DNA of 64,000 nucleotides, taken from positions 3,765-67,764 of the forward strand of contig JAJZZA010000005.1 in the NCBI GenBank assembly GCA_021797825.1. Direction: 5' to 3'. The stretch is from Bacillota bacterium (GTDB lineage Bacteria > Bacillota > Sulfobacillia > Sulfobacillales > Sulfobacillaceae). Of this stretch, positions 26,219-31,566 are shown in pieces. The translations under genes were made by a program, and so were the position numbers. Every line of letters begins with the position of its first letter. Position 1 is the stretch's first letter. The notes below the pieces were generated by a model that saw only the letters and a list, made by a program, of their open reading frames with translations, was not told the DNA's origin and did not search any database.

Positions 26219-28078
26219 TCAGCGCCGGTCGTGCGCGTAGACCACGGTATTGCGTTGGGCTTTGGCCTCATAAAGGGCTTGGTCGGCTTGGCGGAAGAGG
26301 GTGTCGACGACGTCGGGAAAAGGGCAGGCGGTCTCGGTCAGGCCGACGCTGACCGTCATCCGCAGGGAGCCCTTGGCCAGGCTGTGCGGGGTATCCGACG
26401 CCGCCGTCGCCAGGCGGATGGAGTTGGCTAGGGTGACGGCTTGGCGAACCGGCAAATCCGCGCAAATCAACAGAAATTCATCGCCGCCGTAGCGGACCAG
26501 AGTGTCGGGCGGGCGTTTAAGGCTGCTGACCAGGGTGACGAAGCGCTGCAGGATCTCGTCACCCACCAGGTGGCCGTGGCGGTCGTTGATCTGCTTGAAG
26601 CGGTCGATGTCCAGCATCATCACCACCACCGTGCCTTGCGTCCGGCTGAGCAGCCGCTCCAACTGAAAGATGCCATATTCGCGGCCGTAGGCTCCGGTCA
26701 GGTTGTCGCGCAACGCCATTAACCGGTCCCGGTCGAAGACGGATTTCCAAAATCCCAGGCCCAAACCCAAGACCAGGATGTAGATGCCCAGCAGGCGGTG
26801 GTTCGGTCCCAGCAGCCAGGCATAAGCTCCGGTATAGATGCCCACCACCATCAGCGCGGGAGCCAACGGCAGCCGCATCATGGCCATCAGCATGCCCACA
26901 AAAATCAGCGGCAGAAACGGACTGGCCCGGCCCCCGGTAGAAAACGTCCAGCTTAAGATCAAGATCAGGTCAATCAATGTGGTGACATACGGCACTTGCA
27001 AGAACCGCCGCCACAAGCCATAGTAGATGCCGATGAGATCCAGGCCGGCCAAGATCCAGCCCAGGATTAAGGTAATCCAGGGCAGGCGTTCCAGGGCCTG
27101 CGGAGGATGCGCCAAAACCGCCCACATCACGGTGTTGGTGGCGACAATCAAAAGCCGCAGCGGCGACAAAATCCGCTCCGCGCGAAGCTGCACGTGCCAA
27201 AGCCATAACGACTCGCCCCAGCTGGGCCAGGCCGAATGCATTCGTCCGGAATCCGGCGGAATGGCGGCTGCCGCCGGTGCGGCCGCGCTGTCCGTGGGGG
27301 GAAACGGGCAGGTCTGCGCCAGGGTTTGGTCGGTCCAGTAGTCTGCCGGCGCGGCCTCGCCCAGCGCGTACCCTTGCACCGCCTGCACCGTCCGCGACCG
27401 CAGGGCGCTCATCCAGCCCTTTTCTTCCACCCCTTCGGCGATGACCACGGCGCCGACCGTGGTGGCCCATTCGATCCAGTTGTCAAACCGCTCGGGGTGA
27501 CCGGCCAGATACTCGTGTAAGAGCAGTTGGTCCAGTTTGACATATTGCGGACGCAGCAGGGCCAGGCGTTCTTGCGTGGCGGACTTGACTCCGGCATCGT
27601 CCAACGCCAGGGATACGCCCCGCGCCTGCCAGTTGGTGGCGCCGCGGGCGGCCTTGGCGATATTGTCCACAGCGGTTTCGGTAATTTCCAACACCACCGA
27701 ATCCAAGGGGCGGCAGGACTGAATTTGGTGGCTGAGCTCGCCCACCGCACGGCCGTCCAATTCCAGCGATCGTGCCGAGACATTCAAGAAGAGTTTGCCG
27801 GGCAGGGTCTGGGCGTCTTTAAGCGCCGTGGCGATGGACAGTTGGTCCAAGGCATCCTGCAACTGATTGGTCTCGGCCCAAGCCCACACTTCCTCGGGAG
27901 TCAACGGCTCCGGGAAACGCGCCAGGGCTTCAAAACCCAAGAGCTGGTGGTTGCAGAGATCCCAGATCGGCTGAAAACTGTGGTTCAGGCCGCGTTCCAG
28001 GATAAGGCGGATGCGTTCCTCGGAGAGAGCGGCCTCCTCCGCGGCATGCAAAGCGCCCGGGACCGTGTCGATGGGCAT
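26219..28078 (-). CDS. c-di-GMP turnover protein with the reversed domain order EAL, about 6 TM segments, then GGDEF
   Basis: EAL domain motifs: FQPIWDL ... LGFEALARF, VVLEITE, LALDDAG, VKLDQ, VIAEGVEE, QGYALGEA. A hydrophobic block spans residues about 290-450. GGDEF domain motifs: GREYG ... MLDIDRFKQINDRHGH ... KRPPDTLVRYGGDEFLLI, where RPPD lies 5 aa before GGDEF and fits an RxxD I-site. SD AAGGGAGG lies 6 nt before ATG 28078. Confidence 0.85.
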   Translation of the reverse strand: MPIDTVPGALHAAEEAALSEERIRLILERGLNHSFQPIWDLCNHQLLGFEALARFPEPLTPEEVWAWAETNQLQDALDQLSIATALKDAQTLPGKLFLNVSARSLELDGRAVGELSHQIQSCRPLDSVVLEITETAVDNIAKAARGATNWQARGVSLALDDAGVKSATQERLALLRPQYVKLDQLLLHEYLAGHPERFDNWIEWATTVGAVVIAEGVEEKGWMSALRSRTVQAVQGYALGEAAPADYWTDQTLAQTCPFPPTDSAAAPAAAAIPPDSGRMHSAWPSWGESLWLWHVQLRAERILSPLRLLIVATNTVMWAVLAHPPQALERLPWITLILGWILAGLDLIGIYYGLWRRFLQVPYVTTLIDLILILSWTFSTGGRASPFLPLIFVGMLMAMMRLPLAPALMVVGIYTGAYAWLLGPNHRLLGIYILVLGLGLGFWKSVFDRDRLMALRDNLTGAYGREYGIFQLERLLSRTQGTVVVMMLDIDRFKQINDRHGHLVGDEILQRFVTLVSSLKRPPDTLVRYGGDEFLLICADLPVRQAVTLANSIRLATAASDTPHSLAKGSLRMTVSVGLTETACPFPDVVDTLFRQADQALYEAKAQRNTVVYAHDRR

Positions 28079-28115: not shown

Positions 28116-29795
28116 TTACGACCCGTGCAGGGACGCTTGGGGATCCGGGGGACTGTCGGTGGGCGTTAGGGCCGTCTGCAACTGGTAGTAATAGGTGTCG
28201 CGGCCATCTTTTAGGATGTAGCGGTGCAGACCACCGCCGGCATTATGGTAGAGAATGGAGCGGTCAACCTGGTCGGCCAGTTTGACCAGGATTTCGATGG
28301 CGGGCACGCGCAGCGCGCCTTTCAGGGAGGGCACCTCACTCTCTACCACCGGAATCAGCAGATCGCCAAACTGGGCCGCAATGCGGTCGATTGCGTTGTG
28401 GCGCCGCCCCCAGCGGCGCTTCATGAGCCAGGTCAGCAAACCCAGCAGGACGGCCGCTCCCCATCCCGCGCTGGCCACCAGCCGCACCTGGCTGACCGGG
28501 GCCTGGACGGGCCCGATGCCCAAGGTGTTGGGAACCATCACCGGGTCGTTCACATGGCCGGTGAAACGGGTGGAGAGTTGCACCAGCGGGCCGGTGCCGG
28601 GATTTAAGGAGATGAGCTGCATCAGCAACGGGCTGTAGCTGAAAGTCAAGGGCGGAGCCAAGTGGGCGCTAAACGGCTCGGCCAACAGGCGCCCGTGCAA
28701 AGTCACCCGCGGCGTGACGGTCAAGGTGTAGGTGTTATAGGGCACTTCCGTCTCTTGGTTGACTTGCAGAATCCGGGCATTTAACGCATCCGTGTTCAGG
28801 GTGCCTTTCAGGGCAAACGTGGGGCCGGTCCAAACGGTTTGCGGAGCCAGGATCCAAGAGCTGCTCCAACCCGAACTGCTCGTCATGTTGGCGATGAGTT
28901 CGCCTTGGCCCTGGACGCTGCCCGCTTTGGGCAGCGGCGAGCTCCACTGCCCCGCAAAGGCGATGGTTACGGTGTGGGTCAATTTCAAAAACACGCTGGA
29001 TCCCGGCGTTACCATTCCACTCGGATAGACGGTTCCTTTAGGCACCACAGCCTGATACAAGAATTGCCCGCGGACTTGGTAGGGAACGCTCCGCCAGGCA
29101 GTGCGTTGCGTCGGGCTGAACCAGGCCCAAAGCGCTCCGACCAGACAGATGGCGGCGAAAACTTGGATGGCCGCCGCCGCCCAGGTATAAACCGCCGGGC
29201 TGGTTTTCGCGTTGCGAGTCGCACTCACACTGACCATACCCCTTTCTCTTCCCAATCCAGGCCGACGCCAGCTGCCCGGGCGGCCCTTTCGCGACGGTTG
29301 CCGGCGAGCCGCGCGCGAACGGGTCTCGCTCGCGCCGCCCCAAACCAGCAGGGCGAGACCGGCCATCAGCCAGGCCGCATGCCAGGGTTGATGAAAAAAC
29401 GCCAACCAGAGGCCGACATGCGGCAGTGACCACCAAAGCCGGCCCACGATCTGTGAAGCCAGCGGATGATAGGCGTCGGGCACCGGGTTGTTTAGCCCTT
29501 TGAACACATAGCGCTGACCGATTTGGCCCACGATCTGATGAAACAGCACCGCGTGCAGCTGAAGATTGTGATAGGCCGCCAGCTGTCCGATCTGGTAAGC
29601 AGGCGATGTTGTCACCGCCACTAACTCATCGGCGTGAAACCGCGGCAGCATGCTGGTGCCCTTTACTACCAAGTAGGTCTTGTTGCCGCCAAATTGCGCG
29701 GGCGCCACATTGAGCCAGGCCCAGACGGCCAACAACAACCCCAGGGCGAGCCAGAAGTAGGCGAAGGGTCCGCGAGGAGTTTGGCGACGGTTCAT
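28116..29795 (-). CDS. SipW/ER-type (S26B) signal peptidase I domain fused to a ~400-aa three-TM module with a beta-rich exported domain
   Basis: Residues about 10-140 align by eye to B. subtilis SipW. VKGTSMLPRFHADELVAV carries the candidate catalytic Ser. VLFHQIVG carries the candidate His. FKGLNNPVPD ... IVGRLWWSLPHVG corresponds to the KGDNN..D box, with the first Asp replaced by Leu. These are followed by a second TM, an Arg-rich linker, a third TM, a ~220-aa S/T/G/V-rich segment, a fourth TM and an ~85-aa cytoplasmic tail. ATG 29795 has AAAGGGG 9 nt upstream. Confidence 0.7.
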   Translation of the reverse strand: MNRRQTPRGPFAYFWLALGLLLAVWAWLNVAPAQFGGNKTYLVVKGTSMLPRFHADELVAVTTSPAYQIGQLAAYHNLQLHAVLFHQIVGQIGQRYVFKGLNNPVPDAYHPLASQIVGRLWWSLPHVGLWLAFFHQPWHAAWLMAGLALLVWGGASETRSRAARRQPSRKGRPGSWRRPGLGRERGMVSVSATRNAKTSPAVYTWAAAAIQVFAAICLVGALWAWFSPTQRTAWRSVPYQVRGQFLYQAVVPKGTVYPSGMVTPGSSVFLKLTHTVTIAFAGQWSSPLPKAGSVQGQGELIANMTSSSGWSSSWILAPQTVWTGPTFALKGTLNTDALNARILQVNQETEVPYNTYTLTVTPRVTLHGRLLAEPFSAHLAPPLTFSYSPLLMQLISLNPGTGPLVQLSTRFTGHVNDPVMVPNTLGIGPVQAPVSQVRLVASAGWGAAVLLGLLTWLMKRRWGRRHNAIDRIAAQFGDLLIPVVESEVPSLKGALRVPAIEILVKLADQVDRSILYHNAGGGLHRYILKDGRDTYYYQLQTALTPTDSPPDPQASLHGS

Positions 29796-29817: not shown

Positions 29818-29985
29818 TCAGTGCGAGGCGTCGGCCGACGGGGAGGGCAGGGGAATGGAGACGGTCACTTGGGTGATGCCGGCTCCCGAAGGCGCGACCG
29901 TATTGGCCGCCAGCAAGCCTGCCAGGACGCTTCCCACCAGTGCCATGATGGCGAGGCTCAAGATGACCCCGCTGGTTTGCCGCAT
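29818..29985 (-). CDS. 55-aa signal-peptide mini-protein (predicted mature part about 25-30 aa)
   Basis: ATG 29985 (GGGTGGGA 5 nt upstream) gives MRQTSGVILSLAIMALVGSVLAGLLAANTVAPSGAGITQVTVSIPLPSPSADASH. The track TTG start (30027) lies inside the T-run of the upstream terminator. The post-signal motif A-x-N-x-V-x-x-SGAG is shared with the upstream gene product. Confidence 0.45.
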   Translation of the reverse strand: MRQTSGVILSLAIMALVGSVLAGLLAANTVAPSGAGITQVTVSIPLPSPSADASH

Positions 29986-30021
29986 GACGTTCCCACCCTT
30001 TCCGCCGGCTGGGGACGGACA

Positions 30022-30055
30022 GGACAAAAAGGGAAGGGGTGAAACCCTTCCCTTT
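30022..30055 (-). terminator. intra-operon rho-independent terminator/attenuator between the two small secreted-protein genes
   Basis: AAAGGGAAGGG (30028-30038) pairs perfectly with CCCTTCCCTTT (30045-30055) around a 6-nt loop. On the minus strand the stem runs into TTTTTGT. It begins 10 nt after the stop at 30066. Confidence 0.65.
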
Positions 30056-30065
30056 ACCCCCCGGC

Positions 30066-30494
30066 TTATTGCGCCGCCGACACGTTTAACAGGACCGACG
30101 GTTGGACAGGGGCTTCCGGTCCCGGTCCAGTCGCGCTGCAGGACCAGCCGGTGACACCACCGAGGTAGCTGCCGGTCAATGTGCAGGTGTAGTTCCCGCC
30201 AGGTCCGGGGCCGGGTCCAGGTCCACCGAACCAGGCGAAGGCGCTCGCGGCCGCGCCACCTCCCGGCATTGGGGTGAGCAGAAACTGGACGGTCTTAATG
30301 TGCTGGCCGTGAGGTCCCAATGTATAGTGAATCTGCGATACGTTGTAACCGGTAATGGTTCCGGCGCCCTGGCCCGCTCCCGATATGGGGACGTTGTTGG
30401 TGGCCATAAAGGCGTAGGCGGATCCTCCCAGTAACACCGCGCCCCCGATGGGCAACAGGAATCGGACCACACGGGATGCTTTTTTCATCCGCAT
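30066..30494 (-). CDS. small secreted protein (about 115-aa mature) with a Gly-Pro repeat and a Cys pair; candidate subunit/substrate of the adjacent SipW-type peptidase
   Basis: GAGGAGG abuts the first ATG (30503) and lies 9 nt before ATG 30494. The product MRMKKASRVVRFLLPIGGAVLLGGSAYA/FMATNNVPISGAGQGAGTITGYNV ... is a signal peptide with an AYA cleavage-type site. Its h-region GGSAYAF resembles the GGGTWAAF/GGTFAYF of SipW-dependent TasA-type signal peptides. The mature part contains GGPGPGPGPGGN and YTCTLTG ... GWSCSATG. Confidence 0.6.
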   Translation of the reverse strand: MRMKKASRVVRFLLPIGGAVLLGGSAYAFMATNNVPISGAGQGAGTITGYNVSQIHYTLGPHGQHIKTVQFLLTPMPGGGAAASAFAWFGGPGPGPGPGGNYTCTLTGSYLGGVTGWSCSATGPGPEAPVQPSVLLNVSAAQ

Positions 30495-30770: not shown

Positions 30771-30840
30771 ATGTGTCGAAGCGAAAGGAAAACCGGTGCG
30801 ATGTGTCGAAGTAGCTTAACCCCCTCGGGTGTGTCGCGAC
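30771..30840 (+). promoter_or_regulatory. phased direct repeats ATGTGTCGAAG (two copies exactly 30 bp apart) plus a degenerate third copy GTGTGTCGCGA
   Basis: Perfect 11-mers lie at 30771-30781 and 30801-30811. The third copy at 30829-30839 shares the TGTGTCG core. All lie between the candidate -10 and the LuxR-type start codon at 30877. Confidence 0.5.
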
Positions 30841-30876
30841 GCAACGGGTTTTTTGAAACGGAATGGAGGATCACCA

Positions 30877-31566
30877 ATGGCCACGCCACTTAACCTTGTC
30901 ATCATCAGTGGATCGCCAATCATGCGGGTGGGTTTAAAAGCCATCTTTCAACACGACAGCACATTTTTCGTGCATGCCGACACGCCGGAAGAACTGGACT
31001 CGATCGTTAAACGGGTTGCCAATCCCCGGGCGTTCTTGCTCGACATTGACCAGGGCGAGGCCTTGCGCGGGGCGGTGGCCCGGATTGCCGCCTGGGAGAT
31101 GCGGTCAAAAGTTGCGGTGCTGGCTTCTTTCGACAACGAGTCCCTGGTCATGGAGTCCATCCGGTTGGGGGTGGACGCGATTTTGGACAAGGCGAGCAAT
31201 CCCGAAACCATTCTTGAGAGCTTGAAGCTGTTGTGCAGCGAGACCGACGCGAACGTGATTTTGATCTCACCCTCATTTTGGTCGCATTTTGTGGTGCCCA
31301 AAATCCTCCATTTTACCGATCCCGCCAAATTTAGCCTTTTAACCCGCCGCGAACTGGAGATCCTGGCATTGCTGGATAAGGGTTACACCAATTTCGACAT
31401 TGCCAGCGCGTTGGTGATTTCCCCGCATACCGTTAAACGCCATGTGGAGCACGTTCTAAAAAAATTCGACGCCAAAGATCGCCATGAATGCACCCGGCTG
31501 GCCCATTCCGCAGGGATTTTGCACACCGCCCGCCGCCGGGAGGCATCGGTTGACACCATCGCCTAG
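30877..31566 (+). CDS. LuxR/NarL-type transcription regulator with an atypical receiver-like N-domain
   Basis: ATG 30877 has GGAGGA 6 nt upstream. The C-terminal HTH is LTRRELEILALLDKGYTNFDIASALVISPHTVKRHVEHVLKKFD. The N-domain has a receiver-like layout (LNLVIISGSPIMRVGL ... AFLLDIDQGE ... VAVLAS ... ILDKASN), but SGS replaces the usual acidic DD pair. Confidence 0.8.
   Translation: MATPLNLVIISGSPIMRVGLKAIFQHDSTFFVHADTPEELDSIVKRVANPRAFLLDIDQGEALRGAVARIAAWEMRSKVAVLASFDNESLVMESIRLGVDAILDKASNPETILESLKLLCSETDANVILISPSFWSHFVVPKILHFTDPAKFSLLTRRELEILALLDKGYTNFDIASALVISPHTVKRHVEHVLKKFDAKDRHECTRLAHSAGILHTARRREASVDTIA

What the first reader, a model, noticed from the sequence alone, without database searches (positions are those of the whole stretch)
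29818..30494. Two small exported proteins share the post-signal motif A-x-N-x-V-x-x-S-G-A-G
The upstream product reads ...LLGGSAYAFMATNNVPISGAGQGAGTITGYNV. The 55-aa product reads ...VLAGLLAANTVAPSGAGITQVTV. The same short motif sits right after the hydrophobic core in both, which suggests a common recognition or cleavage determinant or a shared N-terminal assembly strand. The larger protein also has a GGPGPGPGPGGN tract and two Cys residues 17 aa apart. The smaller one would mature to about 25-30 aa (NTVAPSGAGITQVTVSIPLPSPSADASH), which is about the size of a peptide or a minor capping or initiator subunit.
Basis: seen in the sequence. Interest (0 to 1): 0.6.

Follow-up and report, generated by a model that had tools for sequence, protein, structure and literature searches.

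The report
Strand-only mini-subunit in fibre operon
Two neighbouring secreted proteins share a motif that marks a large, unannotated family of small proteins always encoded beside their own signal peptidase; the system probably builds a biofilm fibre, and the 55-residue protein looks like a subunit reduced to its signal segment and assembly strand.

Summary
A-x-N-x-V-x-x-S-G-A-G occurs twice in the six-frame translation of the whole 3.6-Mb genome (0.07 expected). Both copies lie in these adjacent minus-strand genes, directly after the hydrophobic segment.

The 142-aa protein belongs to a large family with no Pfam or NCBIfam model: 1,176 clusters at 50% identity. The motif is the most conserved part of that family (A-Y-A|F-x-A-x-N-x-V-P-x-S-x-A-G-x-G). 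In all 13 loci with enough flank, the gene sits just upstream of an ER/archaeal-type signal peptidase. Where that peptidase was read in full and scanned, it is fused to DUF5305.

The 55-aa ORF is a real gene. Four genomes keep it in the same position, with a Shine-Dalgarno site, an MR(Q/H) start and dN/dS of 0.16-0.44. It retains only the hydrophobic segment, the motif and one further strand-like stretch. Three distant loci carry a 133-148-aa RTX protein with the same N-terminal motif.

Best reading (about 0.5): a TasA/AbpX/Tafi-like donor-strand fibre system in which the motif is the exposed N-terminal strand. The mini-protein would be a body-less, TapA-like primer, cap or membrane-tethered placeholder. 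Polymerisation, cleavage and expression are untested, and my co-fold attempt was inconclusive.

The parts
30066..30494 (-). Major subunit gene, 142 aa (ORF open from 30503). It has a signal peptide ending A-Y-A, about 15 unstructured mature residues, then a roughly 100-aa Ig-like beta-sandwich with two conserved Cys and the C-terminal L-x-V-x-A-A-Q.
   Evidence: AF2: residues 47-145 mostly pLDDT 70-90, residues 1-46 below 50; family of 1,176 clusters; no Pfam or NCBIfam model.
30360..30410 (-). Predicted mature N-terminal segment of the major subunit, FMATNNVPISGAGQGAG.
   Evidence: Family logo with period-2 conservation at mature positions +1 to +8 and invariant N, A, G, G. AXA|F cleavage register inferred from the logo and from the hhalign match to camelysin-type signal peptides.
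30020..30063 (-). Stable hairpin between the major gene and the mini gene (11-bp core stem at 30028-30055). It is followed by UUUUUGU in this genome only.
   Evidence: -41.1 kcal/mol, z = -2.7. The GGGAAGGG...CCCTTCCC arms are conserved in all four loci that have the mini gene. The simple terminator scan did not flag it.
29992..30003 (-). Shine-Dalgarno-like GGAAAGGGTGGG, 6 nt upstream of the mini gene's ATG.
   Evidence: Equivalent purine-rich sites precede the MR(Q/H) start in the three orthologous loci.
29818..29985 (-). Mini gene, 55 aa: MRQ, a 24-residue uncharged segment, the motif (A26-G36 at 29878-29910), the strand-like ITQVTVSI, and a Pro/Ser-rich tail.
   Evidence: dN/dS 0.16-0.44; also called as a gene in public annotations.
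28116..29795 (-). Dedicated ER/archaeal-type signal peptidase I (residues 14-150) fused to a DUF5305 module (Pfam match at residues 439-537), 559 aa.
   Evidence: TIGR02228, E = 1.3e-10, 41.4 bits, below the 51.85 cut-off. (PF17231, 34.4 bits, above the cut-off of 29). (Ser48, His86 and Asp107 invariant across seven relatives).
26219..28078 (-). EAL, membrane segment, GGDEF protein (c-di-GMP turnover), the next gene in the string.
   Evidence: EAL 4.8e-31, GGDEF 2e-34; in the distant locus L025 an EAL domain is fused directly to the peptidase-DUF5305 protein.
30829..31566 (+). Divergent LuxR/GerE-type regulator with a weak receiver-like N-terminal domain.
   Evidence: GerE 1e-15; Response_reg 0.0026, below cut-off. 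A GerE gene occupies the same position in L013 and L014.

Best explanation
Shown:
- The shared motif is the hallmark N-terminal segment of a widespread, unannotated family of secreted beta-sandwich proteins, about 100 residues when mature.
- These genes are consistently followed by a dedicated ER/archaeal-type signal peptidase I. Where that peptidase was read in full and scanned, it is fused to DUF5305.
- Second proteins in the same operons carry the same N-terminal segment. In distant lineages these are 133-148-aa RTX calcium-binding proteins. In the window's clade it is a 55-60-aa mini-protein.

Inferred:
- The peptidase cuts after A-Y-A. This exposes F-x-A-x-N-x-V-P-x-S-x-A-G as a flexible N-terminal donor strand.
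- That strand inserts into the sandwich of the next subunit, as in TasA, AbpX, Tafi and archaeal threads, giving a biofilm or surface fibre under c-di-GMP control.
- The mini-protein supplies that strand without a body. If cut at the equivalent register (G23|L24), a 32-aa peptide would fill the free acceptor groove at one fibre end. It would then prime or cap polymerisation, as the minimal TapA(1-57) construct does for TasA.
- If it is not cut, it is a membrane-tethered strand that anchors or chaperones the newest subunit.
For: Motif and chance: 2 hits in the genome against 0.067 expected, in adjacent genes.

Family: 1,176 clusters at E <= 1e-3 and 425 at E <= 1e-10, with full-length matches. 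No Pfam or NCBIfam model exists. N, A, G, G, G, Y are invariant. Conservation alternates with period 2 at mature +1 to +8: 3.5, 2.6, 3.9, 2.1, 4.3, 2.5, 4.1, 2.3 bits. That is the signature of a strand with one buried face.

Structure: AF2 gives a seven-strand sandwich, and the first ~15 mature residues are unstructured. This parallels the 16-residue unstructured donor strand of AbpX monomers.

Linkage: a signal peptidase lies directly downstream in every locus with enough flank. Its Ser, His and Asp are invariant. Published work treats DUF5305 as a peptidase accessory in AbpX and Tafi fibre loci, sometimes fused to the peptidase, often near c-di-GMP enzymes.

Minor proteins: RTX proteins in L025, L027 and L029, and two homologues, carry A-x-N-x-V-P-x-S after their hydrophobic segment.

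Mini gene: found in four genomes from three genera, always between the major gene and the peptidase, with a Shine-Dalgarno site and an MR(Q/H) start. dN/dS is 0.16-0.44. It keeps the family-invariant N, V, S/T, A, G positions, and all four copies have Gly at the position equivalent to -1.

Precedent: TapA and TasA share N-terminal residues. A strain secreting only TapA residues 44-57 forms normal biofilm (PMC10151520).
Against: No polymerisation evidence exists for this family.

Foldseek finds no significant PDB match: best E = 0.094, with no TasA or AbpX entry among the 50 best matches listed. Sequence searches find no solved or annotated relative. hhalign against neighbouring camelysin-like proteins aligns only the signal peptide, at 8.7% probability.

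My co-fold surrogate did not dock the mini strand confidently. It was a stop-read-through fusion of the major and mini genes from L016, and the mini part scored pLDDT 41-52.

Absolute invariance of N, A-G and G is stronger than a donor strand usually needs. It would also fit an enzyme recognition site.

The mini-protein's long hydrophobic segment and the L/A at -3 make cleavage uncertain.

Sister-clade loci work without any mini or RTX gene in the flanks I saw.

Expression could not be checked.
Confidence: 0.5

Rival explanations
1. The motif is mainly a substrate-recognition or cleavage determinant for the dedicated peptidase-DUF5305 enzyme, extending past the cut site as the SipW-cognate signal class does. 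All client proteins of the operon share it for that reason alone. The mini-protein would then be a co-substrate, or a membrane-bound pseudo-substrate that tunes peptidase activity. It would not be a structural part of a fibre.
For: Invariance of N, A-G-x-G is near 100% across clusters that share less than 50% identity. Three otherwise unrelated protein classes share the motif and always sit next to this peptidase. The mini-protein looks like a signal anchor that would sit beside the enzyme in the membrane. The co-fold gave no confident strand docking.
Against: Period-2 conservation and the unstructured-then-sandwich layout are what donor strands show in AbpX and TasA. RTX minors keep N-x-V-P-x-S but not A-G-x-G, so the full motif is not required in every client. 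In TasA/TapA the shared N-terminal residues are the assembly strand. The two readings do not exclude each other.
Confidence: 0.25
2. The mini-protein is a secreted signalling peptide precursor, exported and trimmed like Phr-type peptides. Its product would be sensed by the adjacent membrane EAL/GGDEF protein or the LuxR-type regulator. The resemblance to the major subunit would only reflect its origin by duplication.
For: It is a small exported product encoded between a regulator and a c-di-GMP enzyme that has a multi-pass membrane segment. Its tail diverges quickly between genomes.
Against: The part under strongest constraint is the segment shared with the structural protein (AAN.V.PSGAG.TQ), not the tail. 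No known pheromone family matches. RTX minors with the same N-terminus occupy the equivalent role elsewhere.
Confidence: 0.08
3. The mini ORF is a decaying remnant of a duplicated 5' end of the major gene, or of a truncated minor subunit. It would have no function of its own.
For: MAFFT aligns it to the first ~60 residues of the major protein with one 5-residue gap. Sister loci carry tandem full-length paralogues. It is restricted to 3 of 210 genomes of the class. Its dN/dS is higher than that of the major gene, 0.16-0.44 against 0.08-0.11.
Against: The frame is open, and the start codon, Shine-Dalgarno site and length are kept in four genomes whose synonymous sites are saturated (dS 0.6 to above 3). 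dN/dS is below 1 in every pair for which it could be computed, and the family-invariant residues are retained.
Confidence: 0.07

Closest known systems
Bacillus subtilis tapA-sipW-tasA (TasA fibre, TapA initiator, SipW peptidase)
   Same: A dedicated ER-type signal peptidase sits in the operon. Major and minor proteins share their first mature residues. In the AF2 model the N-terminal segment of the major protein is flexible in the monomer. A TapA construct that secretes only residues 44-57 supports biofilm (PMC10151520), which is what the mini-protein resembles.
   Different: There is no detectable sequence or fold similarity to TasA/camelysin. The subunit is half the size, an Ig-like sandwich of about 100 aa. 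The peptidase is fused to DUF5305. The minor protein has no Ig domain at all and may stay membrane-anchored.
AbpX-type and Tafi-type loci of the TasA superfamily (Pyrodictium abyssi AbpX, bioRxiv 10.64898/2026.01.04.697558; Haloarcula and Natrinema Tafi, PMC11821415, PMC12337348)
   Same: The subunit gene sits next to a TIGR02228-type peptidase and a DUF5305 accessory, which is sometimes fused. The monomer has a ~16-residue unstructured N-terminal extension, an aromatic residue at its start and two Cys. Minor subunits share the strand. c-di-GMP enzymes and regulators lie nearby.
   Different: In my searches the subunit family matched no Pfam or NCBIfam model and no solved structure; I did not compare it with AbpX or TafA sequences directly. 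It is not acidic or calcium-type like AbpX. The minors are RTX proteins or a 55-aa strand-only protein rather than tip adhesins or anchors with pilin-like domains.
Chaperone-usher pili (Pap and Fim terminator and chaperone strands)
   Same: The concept is the same: a strand from a non-polymerising partner fills a subunit's groove until it is exchanged, or caps the fibre.
   Different: There is no outer membrane, usher or periplasmic chaperone, and no homology. The comparison is an analogy only.
Sulfolobus thread filament Saci_0406 (PMC9715654)
   Same: It is a donor-strand fibre made after SPase I cleavage, with a highly conserved first few mature residues. A conserved Asn forms a proposed isopeptide bond with the new alpha-amine. 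The family here has a 100% invariant Asn at mature position +5.
   Different: There is no homology. In threads the Asn lies in the head domain, not the donor strand. Nothing here indicates a covalent link.

Membership tests
TasA/camelysin family (Pfam PF12389, Peptidase_M73) | Sequence match to the family profile | tested here: not met
   No Pfam hit for the 142-aa protein or for 24 other family members at E <= 0.1. hhalign against three camelysin-like proteins from related genomes aligns only the signal peptide, at 8.7% probability.
TasA/camelysin family (Pfam PF12389, Peptidase_M73) | TasA-like jelly-roll fold | tested here: not met
   Foldseek of the AF2 model against PDB gave no match at E <= 0.001. 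The best was 0.094 to an unrelated copper protein, and no TasA or AbpX chain appears among the 50 best matches listed. The model has only moderate confidence (pLDDT 65).
SipW-cognate class signal peptide (NCBIfam TIGR04088, recalled from memory) | Match to the short signal-peptide model | tested here: not met
   No NCBIfam hit at E <= 1 for either protein. I could not confirm that this model is in the release searched. By eye and by hhalign, GGSAYA|FMATN resembles GASSFA|NFTTN.
Donor-strand fibre loci with dedicated SPase I plus DUF5305 (AbpX/Tafi type) | Adjacent ER/archaeal-type signal peptidase I with intact catalytic residues | tested here: met
   TIGR02228 E = 1.3e-10, but 41.4 bits is below the curated 51.85. 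Ser48, His86 and Asp107 are invariant in seven relatives.
Donor-strand fibre loci with dedicated SPase I plus DUF5305 (AbpX/Tafi type) | DUF5305 accessory module, separate or fused | tested here: met
   PF17231 scores 34.4 bits against a cut-off of 29 and is fused to the peptidase. The same fusion occurs in L025 and L029.
Donor-strand fibre loci with dedicated SPase I plus DUF5305 (AbpX/Tafi type) | Beta-sandwich subunit with a free N-terminal extension of about 10-16 residues | tested here: met
   AF2 gives a sandwich at residues 47-145 and pLDDT below 50 up to residue 46. Conservation has period 2 at mature +1 to +8. This is model-level evidence only.
Donor-strand fibre loci with dedicated SPase I plus DUF5305 (AbpX/Tafi type) | Subunits polymerise by donor-strand complementation | tested here: inconclusive
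   No multimer predictor was available. A single-chain surrogate, the major-linker-mini read-through from L016, gave no confident docking.
Donor-strand fibre loci with dedicated SPase I plus DUF5305 (AbpX/Tafi type) | Minor proteins of the locus carry the same N-terminal strand | tested here: met
   The mini-protein does. So do RTX proteins in three distant loci and two homologues.
TapA (B. subtilis fibre initiator) | N-terminal residues homologous to those of the major subunit | tested here: met
   The mini-protein shares N, V, S/T, A, G at family-invariant positions, and MAFFT aligns it to the major protein's N-terminus.
TapA (B. subtilis fibre initiator) | Central complete Ig domain; sequence homology to TapA | tested here: not met
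   Only 27-32 residues follow the hydrophobic segment, which leaves no room for a domain. The mini-protein may work like TapA(1-57) but is not a TapA family member.
Unannotated ~100-aa subunit family defined here | A-Y-A|F-x-A-x-N-x-V-P-x-S-x-A-G-x-G...I-S-G-Y, two Cys, C-terminal L-x-V-x-A-A-Q | tested here: met
   The 142-aa protein has all of these features. The mini-protein has only the N-terminal part.

The most novel reading that the evidence does not exclude
The 55-aa gene encodes a natural body-less subunit: a genetically encoded donor strand, either free or membrane-tethered. It would prime, cap or chaperone a donor-strand fibre, and in this clade it replaces the RTX-bearing minor subunit. 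The fibre itself would belong to a very large, undescribed branch of peptidase-coupled fibres. Its invariant N-terminal N...A-G-x-G signature could mean that cleavage is coupled directly to strand hand-over by the peptidase-DUF5305 fusion, or that an Asn forms a covalent link as in archaeal threads.
Probability: 0.3. Interest if true: 0.75.

Novelty: new variant of a known kind. Interest (0 to 1): 0.55.

Why it matters
Fibres made by donor-strand exchange with a private signal peptidase and a DUF5305 helper were recognised only in 2022-2026, in TasA, bundling pili, Tafi and AbpX. This locus points to a further subunit family of more than 1,000 clusters that no profile library names. The family has an unusually sharp N-terminal signature and a compact two- or three-gene module that could be reconstituted easily.

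The mini-gene is a natural version of an engineered result: TapA's N-terminal peptide is enough for biofilm formation. That makes a direct test possible of whether a bare strand can start, cap or anchor such fibres.

The direct fusion or adjacency of EAL and GGDEF enzymes links assembly to c-di-GMP signalling.

Tried and rejected
- NCBIfam and Pfam scans of both small proteins and of 25 family members found nothing.
- A PDB sequence search with the family profile returned 0 hits at E <= 10.
- Foldseek of the monomer model against PDB gave only generic Ig-like matches, none significant.
- hhalign against camelysin-like proteins of related genomes aligned the signal peptide only.
- Co-folding surrogate. 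In L016 the major stop codon is in frame with the mini gene, so I read TAA as Q to obtain a natural major-linker-mini chain. This is a modelling trick only, not a claim of read-through. AF2 left the mini part at pLDDT 41-52.
- MAFFT would not place mini orthologues on the fusion's C-terminal part. It aligned them to the major N-terminus instead, which is itself informative.
- Short hits in the representative search (91-119 aa) were checked as possible further mini-proteins. They look like frameshifted or truncated majors.
- I looked for an RTX minor or any other motif carrier in the window's own genome and found none.
- I looked for a VKOR gene downstream, as in L013, and found none in the window.
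- I rejected the longer TTG start at 30027 (69 aa), because the Shine-Dalgarno site, the hairpin and the orthologues all fit the ATG at 29985.

Full report
**What is at the coordinates**

The finding lies in a minus-strand gene string.
- A 142-aa secreted protein is encoded at 30494..30066. The ORF is open from 30503, but the GGAGG site is 9 nt from the ATG at 30494, and orthologues start MR(V/I)KK.
- A stable hairpin follows.
- A 55-aa ORF is encoded at 29985..29818.
- A 559-aa protein is encoded at 29795..28116.
- A 619-aa EAL-membrane-GGDEF protein is encoded at 28078..26219.
- A LuxR/GerE-type regulator is divergent upstream.

The 559-aa protein is an ER/archaeal-type signal peptidase I. 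It matches TIGR02228 at residues 14-150 (E = 1.3e-10, below the curated cut-off). It is fused to DUF5305 (PF17231, above the cut-off). Its catalytic Ser48, His86 and Asp107 are invariant across seven relatives, although the Asp of 'GDNN' is Leu in this clade.

Both quoted sequences are correct. The strict motif A.N.V..SGAG occurs twice in the 7.18 million six-frame residues of the whole genome, in these two neighbouring genes. The expectation is 0.067 per genome. A relaxed version that requires a preceding hydrophobic stretch also finds only these two genes. One detail is off: the Cys pair is 15 residues apart, not 17.

**The small ORF is a real gene**

The same ORF lies between the major gene and the peptidase in three further genomes:
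- L013/L014, a metagenome contig;
- L015, a hot-spring Bacillota MAG;
- L003 = L016, another hot-spring Bacillota MAG.

Each copy is 55-60 aa, starts MR(Q/H) and sits 6-8 nt after a purine-rich Shine-Dalgarno site. Pairwise dN/dS is 0.16-0.44 while synonymous sites are near saturation; the major gene gives 0.08-0.11. M1, R2, A15, G18, G23, A27, N28, V30, P32, G34, A35, G36, T38 and Q39 are invariant. Public annotations call it as a gene.

A six-frame profile search of 210 genomes of the class finds it in three species from three genera of one family. It is therefore a young, clade-specific gene.

**The motif is the signature of a large unannotated family**

A profile of the 142-aa protein and nine orthologues hits 1,176 clusters at 50% identity with E <= 1e-3, and 425 with E <= 1e-10. 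Most hits are proteins of 120-140 aa. None of 25 sampled members matches Pfam or NCBIfam, and none has a relative in PDB by sequence.

The family logo reads A-Y-A | F-x-A-x-N-x-V-P-x-S-x-A-G-x-G-x-G-x-I-S-G-Y.
- N, A-G, G, G-Y and a later Y and F are invariant or nearly so.
- There are two conserved Cys and a C-terminal L-x-V-x-A-A-Q.
- A or G sits at -1, a small residue at -3, and an aromatic residue at +1. This places cleavage after A-Y-A.
- That register matches how the signal peptide aligns to camelysin-type SipW substrates from related genomes.

Information content alternates at +1 to +8 (3.5, 2.6, 3.9, 2.1, 4.3, 2.5, 4.1, 2.3 bits), as expected for a beta-strand with one buried face.

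AF2 models residues 47-145 as a seven-strand Ig-like sandwich, mostly at pLDDT 70-90. Everything up to residue 46 is unstructured.

**The link to the peptidase is system-wide, and so is motif sharing**

Every locus with enough flank has the peptidase directly downstream of the major gene. This covers nine loci in the window's order and four distant ones.
- L022 has a major gene followed by a peptidase that runs off the contig end, so DUF5305 could not be assessed.
- L025 has a peptidase-DUF5305-EAL triple fusion.
- L027/L028 and L029 have a 488-522-aa peptidase; DUF5305 is on record (faint) for L029 only.

In L025, L027 and L029 a third gene encodes a 133-148-aa RTX (HemolysinCabind) protein. 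Its N-terminus carries the same segment after a hydrophobic stretch, for example ...VVLAASNTVPPSGAS and ...SAVAASNTVPASN. Two further homologues show it too.

The module is therefore major + peptidase-DUF5305 + a minor protein with the same N-terminal handle. The window's clade lacks the RTX minor and has the mini gene instead. Its sister clade has one or two full-length majors and neither kind of minor in the flanks seen.

**What the mini-protein is**

MAFFT aligns it to the first ~60 residues of the major protein with one 5-residue gap. It consists of:
- a hydrophobic segment;
- the handle, (L/V/A)-(L/M)-A-A-N-x-V-x-P-S-G-A-G;
- a second strand-like stretch, (I/V)TQVxVxI, which corresponds to the major protein's first core strand TITGYNVSQI;
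- a short Pro-rich tail.

All four copies have Gly at the position equivalent to -1, so the Asn falls at +5 as in the majors. This favours cleavage at the same register and would give a 32-aa product here. On the other side, the hydrophobic segment is 23-24 uncharged residues (Kyte-Doolittle 2.3-2.7) with one basic residue. The major protein has 17 residues before the cut (1.6) and 4-5 basic residues. Position -3 is Leu in three of the four copies. An uncleaved N-in/C-out signal anchor is therefore a serious alternative.

**Most likely mechanism**

Published systems supply the frame.
- TasA fibres form by N-terminal donor-strand exchange. TapA shares TasA's N-terminal residues and starts the fibre, and secreting only TapA 44-57 is enough for biofilm (PMC10151520).
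- Tafi and AbpX fibres pair subunits with a dedicated TIGR02228 peptidase and a DUF5305 accessory that is sometimes fused. They have minor subunits that co-assemble through the same strand, and they often sit near c-di-GMP enzymes.
- AbpX monomers have an unstructured 16-residue donor strand that begins with an aromatic residue.

By analogy, the peptidase exposes F-x-A-x-N-x-V-P as a donor strand. Majors then polymerise, and the minors use the same strand to occupy the one free groove. The mini-protein would do this with no body, either as a free primer or cap, or as a membrane-tethered placeholder or anchor.

Shown here: gene reality, family, motif, linkage, motif sharing and the modelled fold. 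Inferred: cleavage site, polymerisation and the mini-protein's role.

**Against, and rivals**

No sequence or fold similarity to TasA or to any solved structure was detected; AbpX and Tafi subunit sequences were not compared directly. Membership in those families therefore fails, and only 'works like' stands.

My co-fold surrogate did not dock the mini strand. It used a fusion obtained by reading the L016 major stop codon as Q, purely as a modelling device.

The near-absolute invariance of N and A-G-x-G fits an enzyme recognition site at least as well as a donor strand, so a recognition or pseudo-substrate reading is the main rival (0.25). A signalling-peptide reading (0.08) and a decaying-remnant reading (0.07) are less likely, for the reasons given under each.

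**Novelty and verdict**

The kind of system has been known since 2022-2026. I reproduced that layout independently in L025, L027 and L029. I found no description of the 55-aa strand-only minor.

I rate this a new variant of a known kind, with interest 0.55.

Noticed in passing
window 30020-30063 (minus strand); L013, L015, L016 equivalents: A GGGAAGGG...CCCTTCCC hairpin directly after the major gene's stop codon is conserved in all four loci that carry the mini gene. Only the window's copy is followed by a U-run. It could attenuate or stabilise the transcript so that major-subunit mRNA exceeds downstream mRNA.
   Followed up: partly
window 28116-29795 (residues 100-107 of the peptidase): The 'GDNN' box reads GLNN in this clade and GEAN in a SipW-like relative. 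The downstream Asp107 is invariant, along with Ser48 and His86. This fits the later Asp being the catalytic one, as in the eukaryotic SEC11 (recalled from memory).
   Followed up: partly
L025:5473-7809: A single 778-aa protein fuses signal peptidase, DUF5305 and an EAL domain. This couples c-di-GMP turnover physically to the processing enzyme of this fibre-like module.
   Followed up: partly
L019 (3483 and 4088) and L020 (3415 and 4022): Sister-clade loci carry two full-length tandem paralogues of the major subunit and no mini gene. A duplication of this kind could be the source of the mini gene.
   Followed up: partly
L010 and L011 (genomes G004, G016 of the same family): Relatives also have classical camelysin/TasA-like genes (PF12389 just below cut-off, signal ...GASSFA|xFT) next to a short SipW-like peptidase. 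Two different peptidase-coupled systems therefore coexist in this bacterial family.
   Followed up: partly
P0050, P0059, P0127 (family members from the representative search): Some family members carry a roughly 40-residue insertion containing Cys immediately after the first core strand.
   Followed up: no
L013:10103-10510: A VKOR-like gene (faint Pfam hit) lies downstream of the module in one orthologous locus. This is of interest because the subunit has two conserved Cys. The window has no equivalent.
   Followed up: partly
window 30093-30128 region of the major gene (GGPGPGPGPGGN): The Gly/Pro tract is a length-variable loop. Orthologues range from no tract to GPPGPGPGPGPGPGPGPGPHGQG, and it is the only low-confidence part of the modelled sandwich.
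   Followed up: partly
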